64,000 nucleotides of DNA from Candidatus Heimdallarchaeota archaeon (lineage in GTDB: Archaea; Asgardarchaeota; Heimdallarchaeia; Hodarchaeales; Hodarchaeaceae). The position numbers were made by a program, and so were the translations under genes. Below, piece after piece: positions 54,917-64,000 of the stretch (position 1 is the first letter of the stretch; the number at the start of each line of letters is the position of its first letter). The notes under the pieces were generated by a model that worked only from the letters and a program-made list of their open reading frames with translations, made no database searches and was not told the origin of the DNA. Location: positions 3,927,140 through 3,991,139 of the forward strand of contig CP070695.1 in assembly GCA_020353515.1 (NCBI GenBank), written 5' to 3'.

Positions 54917-55372
54917 TTAATATTTTTGATTCCAGTGAGCGTATTTTTTCACATAATCCACAGCTTGGATTCTGAAGGCCTCGCGATCCCGTTTCCATTG
55001 ACGGGAGGCTGTAGCATTCAAAGGATCATCTGGATTAGGGCTGTTTAAGAGAAATCTGATTGTTTCCACGATTTGAACAAGGCTGTAAGCTGGACTCCAC
55101 TCCTTACCCAAAATACCAACACAGACCTTTTCCTTAAAAATGTTCACATGCCAAATAGGGGTTTTAAAACGAACTTTAGGTGGTTCAAAGGGATATTTTC
55201 GGGGAATATTGATTTCAATGAAGAAAACACCTCCTTCATACAGCCCTGAACCTAATATTTCCCCTCGCCAGTGAGTGAGGTTATTGCTAACCGTCCGAAA
55301 AGTCGGCTGTTCCCGAGCAAGTTCTTGAGCTTCAATTGCTAACCTATCTAACCATTCATCCTCTGTAAGCAT
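54917..55372 (-). CDS. Ubiquitin-conjugating enzyme E2
   Basis: YEGGVF, YPFEPPKVRF.TPIWHVNI...VCVGIL..WSPA and PNPDDPLN. Confidence 0.95.
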   Translation of the reverse strand: MLTEDEWLDRLAIEAQELAREQPTFRTVSNNLTHWRGEILGSGLYEGGVFFIEINIPRKYPFEPPKVRFKTPIWHVNIFKEKVCVGILGKEWSPAYSLVQIVETIRFLLNSPNPDDPLNATASRQWKRDREAFRIQAVDYVKKYAHWNQKY

Positions 55373-55653: not shown

Positions 55654-55947
55654 ATGTCCGAAGCCTATTTAGATGTATTTGAGCGCTTTGTGAAACTTCA
55701 AGAATTTATGACTGCGGATGATAAAAAATTTCGCAAAGATCCACGTAAAACGGCACGAATAGCATCACTACTAGCGATGGCAAGTTTATACTCCAAATAT
55801 CCACTTGACAAACAGTATGCTGTGTATAAAGCAATGATCCAAACAATGAGGGAGAAAATGCCTAATTTTAAAGCATTAGGGGAGTCAGTGGACGATATTG
55901 CAGCAACATTAATTCTTGCGTCAGAAATAAACAAAACTGTAAAATAA
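55654..55947 (+). CDS. Small helical hypothetical protein with an internal repeat
   Basis: Repeated IASLLAMAS / IAATLILAS helices. Confidence 0.65.
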   Translation: MSEAYLDVFERFVKLQEFMTADDKKFRKDPRKTARIASLLAMASLYSKYPLDKQYAVYKAMIQTMREKMPNFKALGESVDDIAATLILASEINKTVK

Positions 55948-56182
55948 AGAATTCTTCTAACTAACTCTCAAACACCCACCTCAGTTTAAGGCCAAAGATT
56001 TCGACAGAGTTCACTGTAAATCTGAAGATGATCTCATTTCTTTTCGTTTCTTTTATCAAAAAGGATTTGTTCCAGAGAAATTTATCAAAAAAGTAGTAAT
56101 AAACTTGTCGCTACCTAAAACTAGAAAGTCAATATCTTGTAAGAGAAAAAGAAATTACCAAATAAAGGATTAAAGTGGTTCA

Positions 56183-56317
56183 TTTGTCAAAAGAAGGCGC
56201 GTGAGGGGGGAGGGAGGGAGTCCCAACGTCTAGAAAAAAAGTTTTTTCGGTTCGTCGGAACTCCAAAGTATTCAAAATTTATTTGCGTTGCTGCACTCCT
56301 CTCATTGTTCAGCTACT
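56183..56317 (-). ncRNA. Candidate structured RNA / micro-ORF element, copy 1
   Basis: Inverted homolog of 62933-63071; 12-bp covarying stem; 8-codon ORF at 56305-56279. Confidence 0.6.
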
Positions 56318-56339
56318 GTACGTACGATTTTTTATGATC

Positions 56340-56355
56340 TTTATATATGTTTTTC
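56340..56355 (-). promoter_or_regulatory. BRE/TATA-like promoter for element copy 1
   Basis: Minus strand reads GAAAAACATATATAAA, ending about 23 nt upstream of the start of the conserved element. Confidence 0.45.
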
Positions 56356-56788
56356 TACGTTATTTCGTAATTACGTATCAGTTACTCTTACATCCTTCCT
56401 ATTTATAAGGCGTATATAAGGAGAAAAATCCTGTTGGTCCTCTTATTGAGTTTTTTTTGTCAGCTAGATTCTTCTTTGATTGATTTATTTTTAAAAACTA
56501 TAGTGTATTTTTGAAGATAAATTCACTCGGTTCATTTTCTTCTCTATTCTAGGGGGATTCTACTTTGTTATTATCGAAAGGCATTTATATGGTCGGAGAG
56601 CGGAGTGATTTGAGGCGATAAACAATGTGGGATTGCCAAATGGCTTACTCAAAGTAAAGCTTCTAGTTTTTCTCCACCCTCCCGCTGCAGTTTTCGTCAT
56701 TTATCTCAAACTTTGGAACTTTCTGGTTTTTCCTCATTTAATGGATTATACTTTTATAGATTTTCTAATGTCTCTCAAATTATAGGAT

Positions 56789-58885
56789 GTGTCACAAATG
56801 GAAGATCTTAGGAACAAGAAATATGTGATATGCCCAGCATGGCCTTACGTTAATGCAGTCCCTCATCTTGGAACCGTTCTCCATCTATTAGGGGCAGATA
56901 TTTTTCTTCGCTATTTAGAACTCCGAGGAGCTGATGCAATCTCGGCGACTGGTTCTGATTGTCATGGTACCCCGATTGAAGTAGCTGCTATTGAAAAAGG
57001 TGTCTCTCCCCAGAAACTCGTTGATAAAAATCATGAACGAATTGTTGATCTGCTTAAAAAGTGGAATATTAATTTGAACTATTCTAAGACTGCAAATTCC
57101 TTTCATTACAAATGGGTTCAAGATTTCTATAGACGTTGTTATGAGAATGGGTATATTTTTGCTAAAGAAGTCCAACAATTGTATTGTGAACATGATAAAC
57201 GATTCCTCCCTGACCGTTTCGTTGAAGGCACCTGTCCTCATTGTGGAGTAATTGGTGCTAGAGGGGATCAGTGTGATGCACCTGCATGTGGCAAACCTCT
57301 AAGTCCAGTCGAGTTAATCGATCCTTATTGCCGGATTTGTAAGAATCCACCAATCAATAAAAGCACGACTCAATGGTATTTTGATTTTAGTGCTTTTCAG
57401 GAAGAACTCACTCGGTACATTCGTCAGAATAAACAACTACCTGAAAATGCCCTGAAGTTTTCTATCAATATATTAGAAGATGGATTACAAGCTCGTACAT
57501 TAACACGGGATTTAGCATGGGGTATTCCTGCTGATAAGGCGATTCCAGAAGCTAAAGGGAAATCGATTTACGTGTGGCTTGAAGCGGTTTTAGGCTATGT
57601 CTCTGCTTCTGCAGAATTAGGTGAAAGAAAACACAATGATCCTGACTTTTGGAAAACATTCTGGCTGGATCAAGATACGAGAACTGTGTTCTTTATTGGT
57701 AAAGACAACATTTTTTTCCACACATTATTATTCCCTGGGCTCCTTTTAGGAACAAAAGAAAGCTATGGAAAACCTTTTGTCCTTCCATATAATGTAAGTA
57801 CAACAGAATTTCTAACCTTTGAGGGAAAAAAGTTTAGTAAATCAAAGGGAATCGGGATTTGGATTGATGATGCCACTACTCTTCTTCCTACAGATTATTG
57901 GCGTTATTATCTAGCGGCAACTCGACCTGAGACTAAAGATACTTCTTTTACATGGGAAGAATTCGAGCAGCGAGTTAATATCGATCTCAATGATGTTTTG
58001 GGAAATTATATTCATCGTGTCTTTGTCTTACTTCATAAGTACTGTGAGGGAAAAATTCCAGAGTGTCACCGTCTTGATGAGACTGATCGAGGGTTTGTAA
58101 CCGCCATAAATGAAATTCCTGAGATAGTCGCAGATTTTTTTGACCAATTTGAATTTAAGAAGGCGGTCGCTTCAATCATTGATTTTGCACGCACAGCTAA
58201 TACTTATCTTAGTACGAAGGAGCCATGGAAAATAGTGGAAACCGATTTTACCGCTGTTGAAACAACCTTATATCTCTGTACTCAGTCTCTTCTTACTCTG
58301 AGTGTTATTTTATCACCTATTTTACCTGAAACTAGTGAGAAAATCTGGAATACTCTTGATCAAGAGGGAAATGTAGCGGACCAGGAATTCGAAGAAGCAG
58401 GAAAACTAAAACTCCAACCTGGTGGAATTGTCAAAGAATCCACCCCTTTGTTTTCAAAAATAGATATTGAAGAACTTCAGACACAACTTAAAGAATTAAG
58501 AACGAAAGGTCAAATTGATTCTACAGAGGAAACAACATTGTCAGAAGAGAAACCAAGCTCTATTCCTTTTGAGGACTTTCAGAAATTGGATATTCGGATC
58601 GGAACCATTTTAACAGCTGAAAAGATTCCCAAAACAGAGAAATTATTGAAACTTAAGGTTGATTTGGGCTCAGAAATTGGCCAGCGTCAATTAGTTGCGG
58701 GTCTAGCCACTCATAGAAACGTAGATGACTTGATTGGCCAACGATTAACCGTTGTTGTGAACTTAGAACCCGCTACCATTCGTGGTGTTCGTTCCGAGGG
58801 AATGTTGTTAGCTGCTGTTGAAGGGGACAAACTGGGATTAATTATTCCTGATAAAGATGTATCTAATGGTACTCAGATAAGCTGA
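56789..58885 (+). CDS. metG: Methionyl-tRNA synthetase with C-terminal tRNA-binding (Trbp111-like) domain
   Basis: PYVNAVPHLG, Zn knuckles, GKDNIFFH, KFSKS and SEGMLLAA. Confidence 0.97.
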   Translation: MSQMEDLRNKKYVICPAWPYVNAVPHLGTVLHLLGADIFLRYLELRGADAISATGSDCHGTPIEVAAIEKGVSPQKLVDKNHERIVDLLKKWNINLNYSKTANSFHYKWVQDFYRRCYENGYIFAKEVQQLYCEHDKRFLPDRFVEGTCPHCGVIGARGDQCDAPACGKPLSPVELIDPYCRICKNPPINKSTTQWYFDFSAFQEELTRYIRQNKQLPENALKFSINILEDGLQARTLTRDLAWGIPADKAIPEAKGKSIYVWLEAVLGYVSASAELGERKHNDPDFWKTFWLDQDTRTVFFIGKDNIFFHTLLFPGLLLGTKESYGKPFVLPYNVSTTEFLTFEGKKFSKSKGIGIWIDDATTLLPTDYWRYYLAATRPETKDTSFTWEEFEQRVNIDLNDVLGNYIHRVFVLLHKYCEGKIPECHRLDETDRGFVTAINEIPEIVADFFDQFEFKKAVASIIDFARTANTYLSTKEPWKIVETDFTAVETTLYLCTQSLLTLSVILSPILPETSEKIWNTLDQEGNVADQEFEEAGKLKLQPGGIVKESTPLFSKIDIEELQTQLKELRTKGQIDSTEETTLSEEKPSSIPFEDFQKLDIRIGTILTAEKIPKTEKLLKLKVDLGSEIGQRQLVAGLATHRNVDDLIGQRLTVVVNLEPATIRGVRSEGMLLAAVEGDKLGLIIPDKDVSNGTQIS

Positions 58886-58912
58886 GTTGTTTAATCTCCA
58901 AAGATAAGCCCT

Positions 58913-61900
58913 TTAACTCAAAAATAACATTCTCCCCTTTCCACTTATTTCTACAATCTTGCTTTTCCCTTTTTTATGTTCATGCAGATAACCTGTAAGT
59001 ATTAACTGTTTTATCCGCTTTCTTACAGTTGGCCGGCTGATCTTTAACCCCTCACCAATCCCAGAATATGATGGTTTCAATCCGAGATTATTCTGTTGAT
59101 AGACGAATCTCAGAATTTCTAAATATTCTTCAGCGATTTTAGCCATAAAACGAGGCTCTATTTGGTGTGTTTCTTTTTCTAAGATAAGTAATTCCCGTTC
59201 TGATATAGTGGCGCTATCTATAGACAAAATAACGACTAAATTTCTTAGATAGGTTATTTCTTTTAATTTATAGACAAATTGAATCGCGTTTTCGAGACCT
59301 TCTTTTAAAAAAAGGTATTCTAGACGATCAATCAGGATCACACTTTTGCTAGGTGTGTTCTTTATAAGATTTATAAGTCTATTATATCCTTTCTCTTCTG
59401 TTAGCCAAAAAAAATCGTACTCTCCTTCCATATATGCTCTAAAGTCTTTATTTGGAGTTCTGGAGGCAACAAATCCTTTGTACCCAATAGTAGTAAGCTC
59501 GGAAAACACTGTTTTTGATACTGTTGGAACTTCTTCTGTGATGAGATAAACATTACCATCTTGAATTTTATATTTTAGGAATTCTTTCTTTAATTCTTCT
59601 TCGCGTTGTTTAATTGCAGTTATGTCTTCTACCATCAGTAGGAAATTCAGTGGATTACCTTTATCGTCTTTCAAAAGGGATAATGCTACCCGAACCCAAA
59701 GAATATCTTCATTTTTCTTGAGATATCTTTTCTCTGTTTGAAATGAAGAAATTTCATTATTTAGTAATTTTTTAATATGTTCTTCATCTCGTTCACGATG
59801 TTCTTCATGAGTTATATCAAGAATAGTCCTTTGAGTCAGCTCATTTCCTTGGTATCCTAACATTTCCTTAAAAACGTCATTTACTTCAGTAAAACTGAAA
59901 TTTAGATCCGTTAAAGCTATCCCAAGTGGCGAATTTTCAAAAACTGACCGAAATTTTTCTTCACTCTCCCGAAGTGCCTCTTCAGTTCTTTTATAATCAG
60001 TAATATCAGACCAAAAGCCTACAATCTCGAGAGGTTTCCCTTTTTCGTCTTTAACAAGATTTGCTTCATCAAGCATCCAACGATAGGATCCCTTCTTATG
60101 TTGAAATCTATAAGTATTACTATAATTCCCTTCCTCCAGAATATCTTTAAATGTGGTAGAAACTTGTTCTTTTTCATCAGGGTGTAATTTCTGTTCCCAA
60201 AACTCTGGAGTATCAATGAAGCTCTTAGCCTGATATCCTAGGATATCCTTGATGTTCTCACTCATAAAAGTGGTTGAAAAATGACCACCAGGAGTACACG
60301 AGTAGATCACTGCTGGACATGACTTAAGTAGATATTCGAGTCTGAATTTCGTACTTCTCAGCTCATCCTCTACGATTTTTCGTTTGGTTATATCTGTGGA
60401 GATCAAACCTAATCCTTCTTCAGTCTTGAAGGCTTTTACTGAAACGATTCTTTCACCTGTAAGTGGATGACGAAAAATACGATCTGAGAGATATGGTTTT
60501 CCTGTTCTAAGGACTTCTTCATATTTTCCAAGATGTTGTTTATCAAATTCTTCTATATTTTTCCCAATAATATCCTCTTTTTTAGTTCCTACAGGAAGCA
60601 TTCCTAAACCTGTCTTATTTATATCAATTAAATTGAATTCAGAATCCCAAATAGTAAAAGAATCGGTCGCTGCATCCATAAATCTTCTTAATCTTTCCTC
60701 ACTCTTACGAAGCGCGTTTTCCATATTTTTTCGATCAGTTATATCGGCTGCTACTATCCCTAAGCCGTCTCCTACTTTAAACGCTTTCACAGATAGAGTC
60801 ATATCTCCATAATTTTGAGGTGGAGCCACTCTCTCCGCGATATAGGGAATTCCTGTTTTTAGAACTTCTTTATAACGGAGAATATCTTCATGGTTGGTAT
60901 GAAACTCAGTTATATTCCTCCCTAAAACCTCTGTTTTCTCAATCCCAAGTAAAAAAGTCTTCAATCCAGTTTTATTTATATCTATTAGATTTAGATCAGA
61001 ATCAAAAAGAGAAAATGAGTCTGTTGCTCCATCCATAAAACTACGCAGCCTTTCCTCACTATTAAATAGAGCTTTTTGTGCGTTAATCCGATCTGTGATG
61101 TCTTCTACGCTGCCTTCGTAATATTGCATTTTTCCATGTTTATCCTTTATTGATCGTGCATTCTCTCGAAAATGAATAACAGATCCATCAGGTCGTTCAA
61201 GATGGAATTCTAATCCCATTACCTCTCCTTTTTCTTCAATTTCCCTTAAAAATCGATCTCTCGGATACTTCCTAATAATCGCTAGATGATTGGAATCAAT
61301 CTCGATTAACTCGTCGAAGGAAGATAATCCAACTAGATTAAGGAATGCAGGATTTGCTGCGAGAAATTTGTGATCAGGTGTGCTGCGATAAAGACCAATG
61401 GGGATGTTTTCAAACAAAGTTCGATATTTTTCTTCACTTTCTTGTACTGCTTTTTTCATCCGCTTTTGATCAGTAATGTTTCTTATACCAAAGACAATTT
61501 TTAGATTATTCTCATGCTCAATGGCTTTTCCTGAGGCTGTGACCCAAATATAATGACCCTTATTATGTTTTATTCGATATTCAAATTCAAATCTCTGTTT
61601 TCCAGACAGACATTCCGTCAGAATTCTAAAAGCATTTTCTATATCATTAGGGTGAATAAAATCATAACTATTTTTCCCGATCAATTCTCTAGGTTTATAC
61701 CCAAAAAGATCAAAAATCTGTGGACTGACAAAGATGAATTTTCCCTCTTCGTCAACTTCTGCTACAACATCTGTAAGATTACTTATTAACTCACGATAAT
61801 TCTTCTCACTTTCTCGTAATTGTTCTTCAATGTGTGTACGTTCAGTAATGTCACGAATAATCGTAATGACTTGCACGACTGATTCATCATGCAAAATTGG

Positions 61901-62578
61901 GATTTTACGAGTTTCTGTGAAAAATTTCTTACCATTAATCGTAGTAGCTTCTTCAGTGACTAGAGTTTGGCCTGAGGAAAATACAGTGTGGTACTCATTT
62001 AGAACGAGATCGGATAAGAAAGGGAATGCCTCACGAATGGTTTTCCCCACTAAAGGTGTTTCAAAATTGAGTTCTTTGAGCCACTCAGAAAAAGCTGGGT
62101 TTGCTAAGATTATTACGAAATCTCGGTCAATGACGTGAAGTGGATCTCCTAGAGATTCAATAATGGTACGATATTGCTGTTCTGATGATCGTAGTAATTC
62201 TTCAGATTGCTTACGTTCTGTTATATCTCTTGCAATCCCTAAATATCCAGTGATTTGCCCATTAATGACTTGGGGGGTAGATTTTGCCTCTAAAGTTATA
62301 ATATCCCCTGACTTGCCAAAAATTCGAGCTTCATAAGGTGGGACTGTTTCTCCATCGATAGTCGCCTCGAAGCCATTAACTACCACCGACGTATCTTCAG
62401 GATGAACAATCTCGAGAAAATGTTTTCCAATCCATTCCTCCCGAGACCATCCTGTGACTTTTTCAAATTCTTTAGTAACTGACGTAATCATGCCATCAGA
62501 AGACAGAGAAAAGATAATATCACGAATATTATCTAAAATAAACTGACTTTGCTCCTCAATAAGGGATAGAGTATCCAA
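58913..62578 (-). CDS. One-component regulator with eight PAS domains, a DUF835-like domain and a wHTH
   Basis: Eight PAS/PAC units ending in DIT-type motifs; VILIDRLEYL (DUF835-like); C-terminal ISRPTVRKRIKQL HTH; no H-box or HATPase domain. Confidence 0.88.
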   Translation of the reverse strand: MDTLSLIEEQSQFILDNIRDIIFSLSSDGMITSVTKEFEKVTGWSREEWIGKHFLEIVHPEDTSVVVNGFEATIDGETVPPYEARIFGKSGDIITLEAKSTPQVINGQITGYLGIARDITERKQSEELLRSSEQQYRTIIESLGDPLHVIDRDFVIILANPAFSEWLKELNFETPLVGKTIREAFPFLSDLVLNEYHTVFSSGQTLVTEEATTINGKKFFTETRKIPILHDESVVQVITIIRDITERTHIEEQLRESEKNYRELISNLTDVVAEVDEEGKFIFVSPQIFDLFGYKPRELIGKNSYDFIHPNDIENAFRILTECLSGKQRFEFEYRIKHNKGHYIWVTASGKAIEHENNLKIVFGIRNITDQKRMKKAVQESEEKYRTLFENIPIGLYRSTPDHKFLAANPAFLNLVGLSSFDELIEIDSNHLAIIRKYPRDRFLREIEEKGEVMGLEFHLERPDGSVIHFRENARSIKDKHGKMQYYEGSVEDITDRINAQKALFNSEERLRSFMDGATDSFSLFDSDLNLIDINKTGLKTFLLGIEKTEVLGRNITEFHTNHEDILRYKEVLKTGIPYIAERVAPPQNYGDMTLSVKAFKVGDGLGIVAADITDRKNMENALRKSEERLRRFMDAATDSFTIWDSEFNLIDINKTGLGMLPVGTKKEDIIGKNIEEFDKQHLGKYEEVLRTGKPYLSDRIFRHPLTGERIVSVKAFKTEEGLGLISTDITKRKIVEDELRSTKFRLEYLLKSCPAVIYSCTPGGHFSTTFMSENIKDILGYQAKSFIDTPEFWEQKLHPDEKEQVSTTFKDILEEGNYSNTYRFQHKKGSYRWMLDEANLVKDEKGKPLEIVGFWSDITDYKRTEEALRESEEKFRSVFENSPLGIALTDLNFSFTEVNDVFKEMLGYQGNELTQRTILDITHEEHRERDEEHIKKLLNNEISSFQTEKRYLKKNEDILWVRVALSLLKDDKGNPLNFLLMVEDITAIKQREEELKKEFLKYKIQDGNVYLITEEVPTVSKTVFSELTTIGYKGFVASRTPNKDFRAYMEGEYDFFWLTEEKGYNRLINLIKNTPSKSVILIDRLEYLFLKEGLENAIQFVYKLKEITYLRNLVVILSIDSATISERELLILEKETHQIEPRFMAKIAEEYLEILRFVYQQNNLGLKPSYSGIGEGLKISRPTVRKRIKQLILTGYLHEHKKGKSKIVEISGKGRMLFLS

Positions 62579-62932
62579 AAAACCCTCATCTCCATAATTA
62601 AATTGATTAAAAGATTCGGGAATAGTAAAGCTATACTAGGTTTTAAAGTCTGTTAACAGATGAGGAGTGTTTTCTAAACCGACAAGAAAAAGAGGAGATT
62701 TTAGAATCAAACAATATATTCGCAAGGATGGTAAGAATCTCTCATTAAACCCCAATCTCAAGGAAAAAAATAGAAACATTATACGATCCATCCTTTTAAA
62801 ACCTCAACTAAAAAGCCAATACTCGCCAATTACGTTTCCATGTTTTGCCGCGAAAATTGCCTAAAGTTTATATGTATGAAAATGAATATCTTGGATGGAT
62901 GGAAAAGTGGGTGAAGTAGGAAAAGAATAATT

Positions 62933-63071
62933 AGTAGCTGAATGATGAAACGAGTGCAGCCACGCAATTAAAAACACCCCGAAAGCCATGGTGTTCCAAC
63001 GAACCGAAAAAACTTTTTTTCTAAACGTTGGGACACCCTCCCTCCCCCCTCACACCTCTTATTTTGGCAAA
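62933..63071 (+). ncRNA. Candidate structured RNA / micro-ORF element, copy 2
   Basis: Inverted homolog of 56183-56317; stem 62990-63001/63026-63037; ORF at 62945-62971. Confidence 0.6.
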
Positions 63072-63329
63072 CTGACTTAATAAACTGCCCAATTTTGTCC
63101 TTAACTTTCTATATCTCCCTTATCATTTAATCATCTTTTCACGAGTTCTCTCTCTCCTAGAGCTTGTGATGTTAAGAAAGAATCTACTCGTTCCCTACCT
63201 TTGTAAAACTTTTTTAATCCCATTTCTTGTCATTATGTAATTCTTTGAATTAAGCGACGATTTGTCGCAGGAAGGGTTTTTCACCCCTTTTTCCTGCATT
63301 TGTATGATTAAATTCAGAAGTTGATTAGA

Positions 63330-64000
63330 ATGGCAAAATGGGATCTTACTATTTATGAATCTTCGGATAAAAAAGAAATCCGTAATCGTTTTCGGCTTAC
63401 TAAGAAAACCATGACCGCGGCTGGTCAACATGGTAAGGCGATTATTTTAGAAGACGAAAAGAAGAAGGAATGGCTTCTCAAGACCTTTGCGAATATTATT
63501 GATTTTGAACTGAAAGAGATTCAAGATTTAGAGGTTGATCTAAAAGAATCTCCTGAGGATAGTCGTGGTCGGATGCATTTATGGCGTACCTTTAATGAAT
63601 TGACTGCTTCTCGCCTTGGCCGCTGTTTACACTTAAATGTCCCTGAGGCTATCATTGTATGTTCTCAACAGGTTGCTGATCATCCTCTCACCCAGACTAC
63701 AACGTTACCTCTTGGTGATGTAATCATACTGGATGAGGATGAAGAAGGGGAGACTGCTGAAGAATACTATCAACTTTCTGGGCGAGAACCGTATACATTA
63801 GAGACCTCCTCCAAATTTGAAAAGATATTATCAGAGAAAGGGGGTCGTGGGGATCCTACGTCTGTCCTCGCAATTCTTCTCGAAAAAATCCCCGACACTA
63901 TCAATCTTGACGAATTTTTGGACTCCTATGACGATGTGGATGAAGCCTTTCAAATTGTTCAGCAAATTGATGATGGATACACTCTTCTCCCCTTTGATGT
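63330..64000 (+). CDS. HipA-like / PI3-PI4-kinase-like protein; runs off the window end
   Basis: Not in the ORF track; open from ATG 63330 to the end. Contains GQHGKA...EWLLK...NELTASRLGRCLHLNVPEA and ends at LLPFD. Confidence 0.6.
   Translation, partial: MAKWDLTIYESSDKKEIRNRFRLTKKTMTAAGQHGKAIILEDEKKKEWLLKTFANIIDFELKEIQDLEVDLKESPEDSRGRMHLWRTFNELTASRLGRCLHLNVPEAIIVCSQQVADHPLTQTTTLPLGDVIILDEDEEGETAEEYYQLSGREPYTLETSSKFEKILSEKGGRGDPTSVLAILLEKIPDTINLDEFLDSYDDVDEAFQIVQQIDDGYTLLPFD

What the first reader, a model, noticed from the sequence alone, without database searches (positions are those of the whole stretch)
56183..63071. Two inverted copies of a ~135-nt element with a covarying hairpin: candidate new RNA family
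Seen: 56183-56317(-) and 62933-63071(+) are homologous. Each has AGTAGCTGAA...GAGTGCAGC, a variable spacer, a 12-bp stem and a CCCTCCCTCCCCCCTCAC tail. The stem is GGAGTTCCGACG/CGTTGGGACTCC in copy 1 and GGTGTTCCAACG/CGTTGGGACACC in copy 2: one fully compensatory A-U to U-A change and one G-U to A-U change. The wobble pairs work only on this strand, which suggests selection on an RNA structure. The stem encloses a near-identical AACCGAAAAAAC-T7-CTA loop that can pair further, and copy 1 has a TATA-like box just upstream. I do not recognise it as tRNA, SRP, RNase P, C/D box RNA or a known riboswitch.
Basis: partly seen in the sequence, partly recalled or inferred. Interest (0 to 1): 0.8.

Follow-up and report, generated by a model that had tools for sequence, protein, structure and literature searches.

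The report
Hairpin-plus-C-tail small RNA family
The two inverted repeats are genes for an undescribed small non-coding RNA, found in nearly every genome searched of the Heimdall class of Asgard archaea; it consists of a hairpin kept by compensating mutations and an invariant C-rich single-stranded tail, and its function is still unknown.

Summary
Copy 1 (56189-56317, minus) and copy 2 (about 62895-63065, plus) are homologous. The same genome has a third full copy and a decayed fourth.

A covariance model of the core finds the element in 67 of 83 genomes of the class (17 of 18 genera) and in one other family of the phylum. Most genomes have one copy; the window's genus (Hodarchaeum-like) has 1-8.

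The conserved core is a 12-bp stem topped by an A-run/U-run helix, followed by an invariant tail, CCUCCCUCCC(C/U). Covariation is very strong, and G:U pairs outnumber A:C pairs by about 3.4 to 1, which fixes the transcribed strand.

Outside the genus, a TATA-like box sits 26-31 nt upstream of the hairpin, and a T-run usually follows the tail. Neighbouring genes differ between families, and the downstream gene is usually convergent. These features indicate a stand-alone gene rather than a leader sequence, a mobile element or a small ORF.

The AGUAGCUGAA...GAGUGCAGC part is a genus-specific extra 5' hairpin with a K-turn-like loop.

Rfam gives no match even at E<=10. Expression could not be tested.

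The most likely mechanism, which is inferred only, is that the exposed tail resembles the anti-Shine-Dalgarno sequence and pairs with G-rich sites or binds a protein.

The parts
56340..56347 (-). Copy 1: TATA-like box (TATATAAA), centred about 26 nt upstream of the predicted 5' end
   Evidence: Read from the sequence. Copy-1-type orthologues L029 and L053 have a TATA-like box at the same distance, in the -80 to -90 peak before the 3' hairpin. The upstream gene metG is divergent, so the RNA needs its own promoter.
56189..56317 (-). Copy 1: predicted small RNA, about 129 nt, from AGUAGC to the T-run
   Evidence: R1 145.7 bits, R2 89.2 bits. The ends are inferred from the TATA position and the T-run; they were not measured.
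56287..56316 (-). Copy 1: genus-specific 5' hairpin with a K-turn-like loop (stem GUAGCUGAAC/GUGCAGCAAC; loop AAU-GA-GAG-GA)
   Evidence: Consensus fold. In 15 genus members, 5 of 9 pairs show compensatory changes and both GA dinucleotides are invariant.
56217..56264 (-). Copy 1: core hairpin, with a 12-bp lower stem, an AACC/CUAGA internal loop and a 6-bp A-run/U-run upper stem
56201..56218 (-). Copy 1: invariant C-rich tail CCCUCCCUCCCCCCUCAC (the first two C close the stem)
   Evidence: Identical in all three copies. The core CCUCCCUCCC is invariant or nearly so across the class.
56189..56195 (-). Copy 1: T-rich run (TTCTTTT), the likely terminator
   Evidence: 55 of 78 family members have T4 or longer within 30 nt after the tail, median start 8 nt.
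62867..62873 (+). Copy 2: TATA-like box (TTTATAT), preceded by two TTGCC motifs (62845-62864)
   Evidence: The stretch between it and AGUAGC (GGGUGAAGUAGGAAAAG) is conserved in copy 3 and in orthologues L028 and L052, so it is probably transcribed.
62895..63065 (+). Copy 2: predicted small RNA, about 170 nt (5' end inferred; the homologous core starts at 62933)
   Evidence: R1 150.9 bits, R2 90.1 bits.
62934..62963 (+). Copy 2: 5' hairpin with a K-turn-like loop (GAU-GA-AAC-GA)
62990..63037 (+). Copy 2: core hairpin
63036..63053 (+). Copy 2: invariant C-rich tail
63062..63065 (+). Copy 2: T4 run, the likely terminator

Best explanation
Each copy is a stand-alone gene for a small non-coding RNA of a previously undescribed family that is conserved across the Heimdallarchaeia.

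The functional core is a stable hairpin, whose sequence is free to vary but whose pairing is kept, followed directly by an invariant single-stranded pyrimidine tail, CCUCCCUCCC(C/U). Transcription starts from the gene's own TATA promoter and ends at a T-run a few bases after the tail. In the window's genus the gene has multiplied to 1-8 copies per genome, and the RNA has gained 5' extensions. In these copies the extension is a hairpin with a K-turn-like loop that may recruit L7Ae.

Proposed mechanism (inferred, not shown): the hairpin is a stabilising scaffold that presents the tail. The tail contains the anti-Shine-Dalgarno core CCUCC of 16S rRNA, and it pairs in trans with G-rich, Shine-Dalgarno-like stretches of other RNAs to block ribosome binding or alter RNA stability.

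My confidence that this is a real, independently transcribed structured RNA gene family is about 0.9. My confidence in the pairing mechanism is about 0.4; the figure given for this explanation as a whole is the latter.
For: Homology and structure:
- Three copies in the genome.
- The core model finds 67 of 83 class genomes, 17 of 18 genera, and 2 of 2 genomes of one further family.
- On a structure-blind MAFFT alignment of 46 members, 88% of cells pair. 131 cells have changes on both sides, against 40.7 +/- 7.1 in shuffles (0 of 500 reached it) and 24-47 when the partners are slid. 11 of 12 lower-stem pairs show compensatory changes.
- In 31 members from other families, 12 of 12 pairs covary and 96% of cells pair (this alignment was fitted to the model).

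Strand:
- G:U against A:C cells are 97:28 and 31:9.

Independent gene:
- In 31 members from other families, a sharp peak of TATA-like matches lies 26-31 nt before the hairpin (36 matches in that bin; no other bin has more than 10).
- T4 or longer follows the tail in 55 of 78 members.
- Flanking genes differ between families: metG, E2, BpsA, Vps36-like, PNP, DEAD helicase.
- The downstream gene is usually convergent.
- In 9 of 12 Hodarchaeales metG loci the RNA is divergent from metG.

Exposed tail:
- The mean unpaired probability of CUCCCUCC is 0.97 in the short forms and 0.64 in the genus forms.

Link to the anti-Shine-Dalgarno sequence:
- 16S rRNA of the class ends in GGAUCACCUCCU.
- The genome uses Shine-Dalgarno sites: G is enriched at -12 to -8, and GGAG, GAGG and GGTG are 2.5-3 times background.

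Known analogues that mask ribosome-binding sites:
- M. mazei sRNA41 and sRNA154 (PMC5867862).
- The C-rich-motif sRNA RsaE (PMC6158497).
Against:
- No target was found. The full complement GGGAGGGAGG is no commoner in class genomes than its reversed control once the RNA genes themselves are subtracted.
- The best G-rich sites next to start codons in this genome are almost all inside longer ORFs.
- GGGAGG is not enriched upstream of starts.
- Pairing with ordinary 5-nt Shine-Dalgarno cores would not need 11-14 invariant bases, which fits a single conserved partner better.
- 58 of 78 members carry a T5-7 run inside the hairpin. From my own knowledge this should tend to terminate archaeal transcription before the tail is made. 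This is unexplained.
Confidence: 0.4

Rival explanations
1. The RNA is a protein-binding or decoy RNA. The invariant (CCCU)n tail is a platform for a conserved single-strand-RNA-binding protein. One candidate is a KH-domain factor such as the Dim2/Pno1-like protein, which normally holds the CCUCC 3' end of 16S rRNA. On this reading the RNA is a housekeeping RNP, or a mimic of the 16S 3' end (hairpin h45 plus anti-SD tail) that titrates ribosome-biogenesis or initiation factors.
For: - 11-14 invariant bases across a class, mostly a single copy per genome, and no RNA target found. These fit one conserved partner better than many mRNA targets.
- The layout of a hairpin followed by a CCUCC-containing single strand parallels the 16S 3' end.
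- The genome encodes the usual small KH proteins, with frames of 180 and 193 aa.
- That archaeal Dim2 binds the 16S 3'-end fragment is from my own knowledge (Jia et al. 2010, J Mol Biol); I did not check it here.
Against: - No partner protein is identified. There is no conserved neighbouring gene.
- No unusual multi-KH (PCBP-like) protein was found.
- The hairpin is not h45-like in sequence.
Confidence: 0.25
2. The element acts in cis, as a 3'-UTR or terminator element of the upstream gene, or as a two-way terminator between convergent genes, rather than as its own gene.
For: - In families f3 and f4 it lies 48-123 nt after a same-strand gene and 10-52 nt from a convergent gene in most loci.
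- It contains T-runs readable on both strands.
Against: - The TATA-like box sits at a fixed 26-31 nt distance.
- In the window's genus the upstream gene (metG) is divergent.
- Neighbouring genes are unrelated between families.
- An invariant tail downstream of the hairpin has no role in a terminator.
Confidence: 0.07
3. The RNA is a guide or chaperone RNA for rRNA processing or modification, with the tail pairing to a conserved G-rich rRNA or pre-rRNA segment and L7Ae bound at the K-turn-like loop.
For: - The invariant tail suggests an invariant RNA partner.
- The genus copies carry a K-turn-like 5' hairpin.
Against: - No contiguous complement was found in eight 16S loci or three 23S loci of the class. 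The best duplexes were interrupted, at -13 to -19 kcal/mol.
- There is no C/D or H/ACA box arrangement.
- The K-turn-like hairpin is absent outside some subfamilies of the genus.
Confidence: 0.05
4. It is a DNA-level or mobile element: an IS or MITE end, a replication-origin box with a G-string, or a G-quadruplex on the opposite strand.
For: - The window has two inverted copies.
- The opposite strand reads GGGGGGAGGGAGGG.
- Several copies occur in some genomes.
Against: - No transposase or reverse-transcriptase gene is nearby.
- The positions are syntenic within the genus.
- Most genomes have a single copy.
- A freely covarying stem with a G:U bias of 3.4 to 1 indicates an RNA of one strand.
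- Viral contigs that carry the 16-mer do not have the element.
Confidence: 0.03
5. It encodes a small protein, either the 8-codon micro-ORF in the 5' hairpin or an ORF that starts at the AUG just before the main stem.
For:
- Many members have AUGG directly before the stem.
Against: - The micro-ORF ATG is ACG in 2 and TTG in 1 of 15 orthologues, and its stop is not kept in copy 3.
- The base before UGG is A, U or C.
- Loop lengths differ by non-multiples of 3.
- No frame is open across the hairpin in more than 34 of 78 members.
Confidence: 0.01

Closest known systems
Methanosarcina mazei intergenic sRNAs sRNA41 and sRNA154 (anti-RBS sRNAs; reviewed in PMC5867862)
   Same: They are archaeal, independently transcribed, structured small RNAs. 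Exposed pyrimidine-rich 'anti-ribosome-binding-site' sequences are proposed to mask the ribosome-binding sites of target mRNAs.
   Different: There is no sequence or structural homology, and no Rfam hit. In this family the C-rich element is a 3' tail after a single hairpin rather than a loop. It is invariant over a whole class, and no target is known.
C-rich (UCCC-motif) sRNAs of Firmicutes: RsaE/RoxS (PMC6158497). LhrC and the streptococcal csRNAs are added from my own knowledge.
   Same: They are short RNAs, often in several paralogous copies. Unpaired C-rich motifs pair with G-rich Shine-Dalgarno regions.
   Different: They are bacterial and unrelated in sequence. Their motifs sit in loops or linkers, and their targets have been validated experimentally, which is not the case here.
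3' end of 16S rRNA (helix 45 plus the anti-Shine-Dalgarno tail GGAUCACCUCCU)
   Same: Both have a hairpin followed directly by a single-stranded CCUCC-containing tail.
   Different: The hairpin sequence is not h45, which is universally conserved, whereas this stem varies freely. The tail is longer, (CCCU)2-3. The RNA has its own promoter and is unlinked to rRNA genes.
K-turn and K-loop motifs bound by L7Ae (PMC3884654)
   Same: The 5' hairpin of the genus copies has a canonical covarying stem, a 3-nt bulge (RAU) and two invariant GA dinucleotides placed to form tandem G.A pairs.
   Different: In a K-loop the C helix is replaced by the loop (PMC3884654). Here the C helix is kept, and the NC helix is cut down to the two G.A pairs capped by 3 nt. 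L7Ae contacts the NC-helix groove, so binding is uncertain.

Membership tests
Any Rfam 15 family | Covariance-model match at the gathering score, or at least a weak match | tested here: not met
   There were 0 matches in the whole window at gathering score and 0 matches in 55900-63400 at E<=10.
Box C/D sRNA | C box (RUGAUGA) near the 5' end and D box (CUGA) near the 3' end, internal D'/C' boxes, and 10-12-nt guides upstream of D and D' | tested here: not met
   CUGA and (in copy 2 only) UGAUGA lie 2 nt apart within one hairpin. There is no D box at the 3' end, and UGAUGA is CAAUGA in copies 1 and 3.
Box H/ACA sRNA | A hairpin with a pseudouridylation pocket, a K-turn or K-loop in the upper stem, and ACA 14-16 nt 3' of the pocket | tested here: not met
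   The K-turn-like loop is in a separate 5' hairpin. The main hairpin is followed by the C-rich tail and has no conserved ACA.
K-turn / K-loop (L7Ae site) | Tandem sheared G.A pairs next to a 3-nt bulge | tested here: met
   This holds at the sequence level only. G18, A19, G23 and A24 are invariant in 15 of 15 members, with a 3-nt bulge of consensus RAU.
K-turn / K-loop (L7Ae site) | An NC helix continuing beyond the G.A pairs (K-turn), or the C helix replaced by a terminal loop (K-loop) | tested here: not met
   The C helix is present and covaries. The NC side is only a 3-nt cap. The definition is taken from PMC3884654.
K-turn / K-loop (L7Ae site) | Binding of L7Ae | not testable with these tools
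   No RNA-protein predictor or binding data were available.
Trans-acting anti-RBS / C-rich-motif sRNA | Independent transcription unit | tested here: inconclusive
   A promoter-like box lies at a fixed distance, a T-run follows, the upstream gene is divergent and the downstream gene convergent. There are no RNA reads.
Trans-acting anti-RBS / C-rich-motif sRNA | C-rich motif exposed in the folded RNA | tested here: met
   The predicted unpaired probability is 0.97 (short forms) and 0.64 (genus forms).
Trans-acting anti-RBS / C-rich-motif sRNA | Complementarity to the ribosome-binding sites of identifiable target mRNAs | tested here: inconclusive
   The tail contains CCUCC, the complement of the GGAGG core used in this genome. 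No extended or conserved target site was found.
IS / MITE terminal repeat | A transposase nearby or many dispersed copies, terminal inverted repeats bounding a unit, and target-site duplications | tested here: not met
   The genes between and around the copies are metG, a PAS sensor and an E2 enzyme. Copy number is 1-8 per genome, at syntenic sites.
Small-protein gene | A conserved start, stop and reading frame | tested here: not met
   see the small-protein rival explanation.

The most novel reading that the evidence does not exclude
The RNA is a housekeeping RNP component specific to Heimdallarchaeia, the archaea closest to eukaryotes. Its invariant (CCCU)n tail mimics the 3' end of 16S rRNA and is held by a conserved factor, for example a Dim2/Pno1-like KH protein or an initiation factor. 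On this reading the RNA would globally tune small-subunit maturation or Shine-Dalgarno-dependent initiation. That would be a kind of archaeal riboregulator not described so far. The T-run inside the hairpin would then act as a built-in attenuator that decides whether the tail is made at all.
Probability: 0.15. Interest if true: 0.8.

Novelty: new variant of a known kind. Interest (0 to 1): 0.62.

Why it matters
Very few non-coding RNAs are known in Asgard archaea, and I found none described for Heimdallarchaeia in Rfam 15 or in the paper library searched. This is a simple RNA of about 60 nt in its minimal form. It is present in nearly every genome of the class that was searched, and its 11-14-nt element has not changed while everything around it has, which indicates a conserved and probably central partner.

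With Hodarchaeales now in culture (bioRxiv 10.1101/2025.02.26.640444), it can be tested directly by Northern blot, dRNA-seq, pull-down and interactome methods. It could show how translation or ribosome biogenesis is regulated in the closest archaeal relatives of eukaryotes.

The covariance models built here would also let the RNA be annotated across Asgard genomes.

Tried and rejected
- **Rfam.** Searched at gathering score and at E<=10: nothing.
- **rRNA targets.** Duplex scans of the tail against eight 16S and three 23S loci of the class found no contiguous complement. The window's own genome holds no 16S gene because it is a MAG of about 110 contigs joined by N runs.
- **mRNA targets.** Three approaches gave nothing.
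  - Sites like GGGAGGGAGG in the genome showed no pattern.
  - The count of that 10-mer over 83 genomes is no higher than its reversed control after subtracting the RNA genes.
  - The best G-rich sites before start codons are almost all internal to longer ORFs.
- **Telomerase-like template idea.** There are no (AGGG)n arrays in the genome: CCCTCCCTCC occurs only 3 and 4 times on the two strands, including the RNA genes themselves.
- **Virus or mobile-element link.** 47 IMG/VR contigs carry the 16-mer. Their model scores are weak, most are G+C-rich, and the best one lacks the element's long hairpin.
- **Conserved partner gene.** The neighbours differ between families. A KH-domain scan found only four KH_1 hits, in frames of 180-633 aa, which looks to me like the ordinary archaeal set.
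- **Literature.** Searches for the tail sequence and for Heimdall or Hodarchaeales small RNAs found nothing relevant.
- **Micro-ORF and AUG-started ORF readings.** Rejected.

Full report
**What is there.** Copy 1 runs on the minus strand from about 56317 to the T-run at 56192-56189. The homologous part of copy 2 runs on the plus strand from 62933 to the T-run at 63062-63065. A BLAST of copy 2 against the window's own genome finds three places:
- copy 2 itself;
- copy 1 (81% identity, E 1e-30);
- a third copy at G000:C1:273801-273923, minus strand (82%, E 4.5e-27).

A covariance model adds a decayed fourth copy at 1526214-1526333, whose tail is interrupted. The 18-nt tail CCCTCCCTCCCCCCTCAC is identical in the three intact copies. 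The genome is 36% G+C, and the 14-mer CCCTCCCTCCCCCC occurs nowhere else in it. The third copy supplies further compensatory swaps in the 12-bp stem and in the 5' hairpin.

**Anatomy in the window.** Each copy has four parts.
1. A 5' hairpin, G(U/C)AGCUGAAY ... GUGCAGCMRC, enclosing a 10-nt loop RAU-GA-NNN-GA.
2. A variable spacer that ends in GAAWRCNNU.
3. The main hairpin. It has a 12-bp lower stem, a small internal loop, and a 6-bp upper stem of A on the 5' side and U on the 3' side.
4. The C-rich tail, whose first two C close the stem, followed by a T-run.

**Distribution.** A model of the whole element (R1) found it in 19 of 21 other genomes of the genus, with several copies in many of them. 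In two of these genomes the same inverted pair lies about 6.3 kb apart.

The alignment of those hits showed that only the spacer end, the main hairpin and the tail are shared by all. The 5' part falls into at least six unrelated types.

A second model of that core (R2, built from 46 sequences) finds it in 67 of 83 genomes of the class, that is 17 of 18 genera, and mostly once per genome. In a sample of 151 genomes of the phylum, clear matches outside the class occur only in one family (2 of 2 genomes, E about 1e-8). The other hits outside the class are weak (E about 5e-4); the two examined in detail (L130, L131) are not convincing.

Relatives of the adjacent metG gene are named Hodarchaeota, Hodarchaeum and Heimdallarchaeota MAGs. 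The lineage is therefore Hodarchaeales within Heimdallarchaeia, as earlier notes of this scan also said.

**Structure is under selection, on this strand.** I counted pairs first on a MAFFT alignment made without reference to structure.
- 88% of cells form pairs.
- 131 cells carry changes on both sides. Column shuffles give 40.7 +/- 7.1 (0 of 500 reach the observed value). Sliding the 3' partners by 1-3 columns gives 24-47.
- 11 of 12 lower-stem pairs have compensatory changes.

In 31 members from other families, aligned to the model, all 12 lower-stem pairs covary and 96% of cells pair.

Wobble G:U cells outnumber A:C cells 97:28 and 31:9. A:C cells would be the wobbles of the opposite strand, so the selected molecule is the RNA that carries the C-rich tail.

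**It is its own gene.** In the 31 members outside the genus, TATA-like hexamers pile up 26-31 nt before the first base of the hairpin: 36 matches fall in that 5-nt bin, and no other bin has more than 10. This places the start of the RNA at or just before the hairpin. The minimal RNA is thus a hairpin plus tail of about 55-75 nt.

In the genus the box lies about 80-90 or about 145 nt before the main hairpin. For copy 1 it is TATATAAA at 56347-56340, about 26 nt before AGUAGC.

Other evidence points the same way.
- A run of four or more T follows the tail in 55 of 78 members.
- Flanking genes are unrelated between families: metG, a PAS/DUF835 sensor and an E2 enzyme in the window; BpsA-like, Vps36-like, PNP and a DEAD helicase elsewhere.
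- The downstream gene is usually convergent.
- In 9 of 12 Hodarchaeales metG loci the RNA is divergent from metG.

These facts rule out a dedicated 5' leader and argue against a 3'-UTR element or a mobile element. No reading frame is kept across the element. The micro-ORF seen in copies 1 and 2 loses its ATG or its stop in orthologues.

**The 5' hairpin.** In 15 genus members the stem is kept, with 5 of 9 pairs showing compensatory change. The two GA dinucleotides of the loop are invariant.

The layout is a canonical stem, a 3-nt bulge, GA, 3 nt, GA, and back into the stem. That is the sequence signature of a K-turn.

It is not a textbook K-turn or K-loop. In a K-loop the canonical helix is replaced by the loop (PMC3884654). 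Here the canonical helix is kept and the non-canonical helix is reduced to the two G.A pairs. L7Ae binding is a lead, not a finding. The hairpin is absent from most of the family, so it is an accessory.

**What it may do.** Calculated folds leave the tail single-stranded: the mean unpaired probability is 0.97 in the short forms and 0.64 in the longer genus forms.

The tail contains CCUCC, the core of the anti-Shine-Dalgarno sequence. 16S rRNA of the class ends in GGAUCACCUCCU, and this genome uses Shine-Dalgarno sites.

By analogy with archaeal sRNA41 and sRNA154 (PMC5867862) and with bacterial C-rich-motif sRNAs such as RsaE (PMC6158497), the most economical reading is a trans-acting RNA whose tail pairs with G-rich sites.

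I could not support this with a target.
- There is no contiguous complement in 16S or 23S rRNA.
- There is no excess of the perfect complement in 83 genomes.
- No convincing ribosome-binding site with extended complementarity was found.

Invariance over 11-14 bases, together with a single copy in most genomes, fits one conserved partner better than many mRNAs. A protein-binding or 16S-3'-end-mimic role is therefore a serious rival.

One feature remains unexplained. 58 of 78 members have a T5-7 run inside the hairpin. From general knowledge of archaeal termination, this should tend to stop transcription before the tail is made.

**Limits.** All RNA ends given here are inferred. The covariation counts are not phylogeny-corrected, although the slid-partner control keeps the relatedness of the sequences. 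Family and genus labels are the tool's anonymous codes.

**Verdict.** This is a real, strongly supported and apparently undescribed small RNA family, conserved across a class of Asgard archaea. Its mechanism is open.

Noticed in passing
G000:C1:1526214-1526339 (+), outside the window: A decayed fourth copy of the RNA gene. Remnants of the 5' hairpin are present (AGAGGAGTGCAGCA), but the tail is interrupted (CCCCTCCCTTTAACCCCCT). It is probably a pseudogene.
   Followed up: partly
window 55654-55947 (+): A 97-aa ORF with no Pfam match, convergent with copy 1. A 96-100-aa ORF holds the same position in at least 10 other genomes of the genus, so it is probably a real lineage-specific small protein gene.
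   Followed up: partly
window 63321-64000 (+), continuing to about 64457 in L022: A 378-aa ORF with no Pfam match lies 260 nt downstream of copy 2 on the same strand. The same arrangement is seen in two relatives (L028, L052). Read-through from the RNA gene cannot be excluded.
   Followed up: no
window 62845-62864 and 56372-56378; loci L054-L057, L095-L103, L105-L110: Short motifs recur just upstream of the TATA boxes of family members. TTGCC/TTGCAA repeats occur at copy 2, in genus subfamily D and in family f4. TTACGAA occurs at copy-1-type genes and in family f3. They may be a shared transcription-factor site.
   Followed up: no
main hairpin of 58 of 78 family members, e.g. window 56240-56234 and 63014-63020: A T5-7 run lies inside the hairpin, paired with an A-run. 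It is expected to be a termination signal for archaeal RNA polymerase in the middle of the RNA. It might act as an attenuator.
   Followed up: partly
window 56279-56305 (-) and 62945-62971 (+): The 8-codon micro-ORF noted earlier (e1-5541774) is not conserved. Its ATG is part of the K-turn-like loop and is ACG or TTG in 3 of 15 orthologues. The stop is missing in copy 3.
   Followed up: yes
L136 2975-3010 and L139 (16S loci of two genomes of another family in the class): Directly after the 16S 3' end there is a G/C hairpin followed by CUCCCU (GGGGGGCC-UCA-GGCCCCUCCCU). It looks superficially like the hairpin-plus-C-tail layout and is probably a processing stem.
   Followed up: no
whole genome G000: The 'single contig' is about 110 contigs joined by runs of 100 N. 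No 16S rRNA gene is present. The window is the first 64 kb of an 82-kb contig.
   Followed up: yes
window 54917-55372 (-) and 58913-62578 (-): A ubiquitin-conjugating E2 enzyme gene, and a 1221-aa protein with about eight PAS domains plus DUF835, flank or lie between the RNA genes.
   Followed up: no
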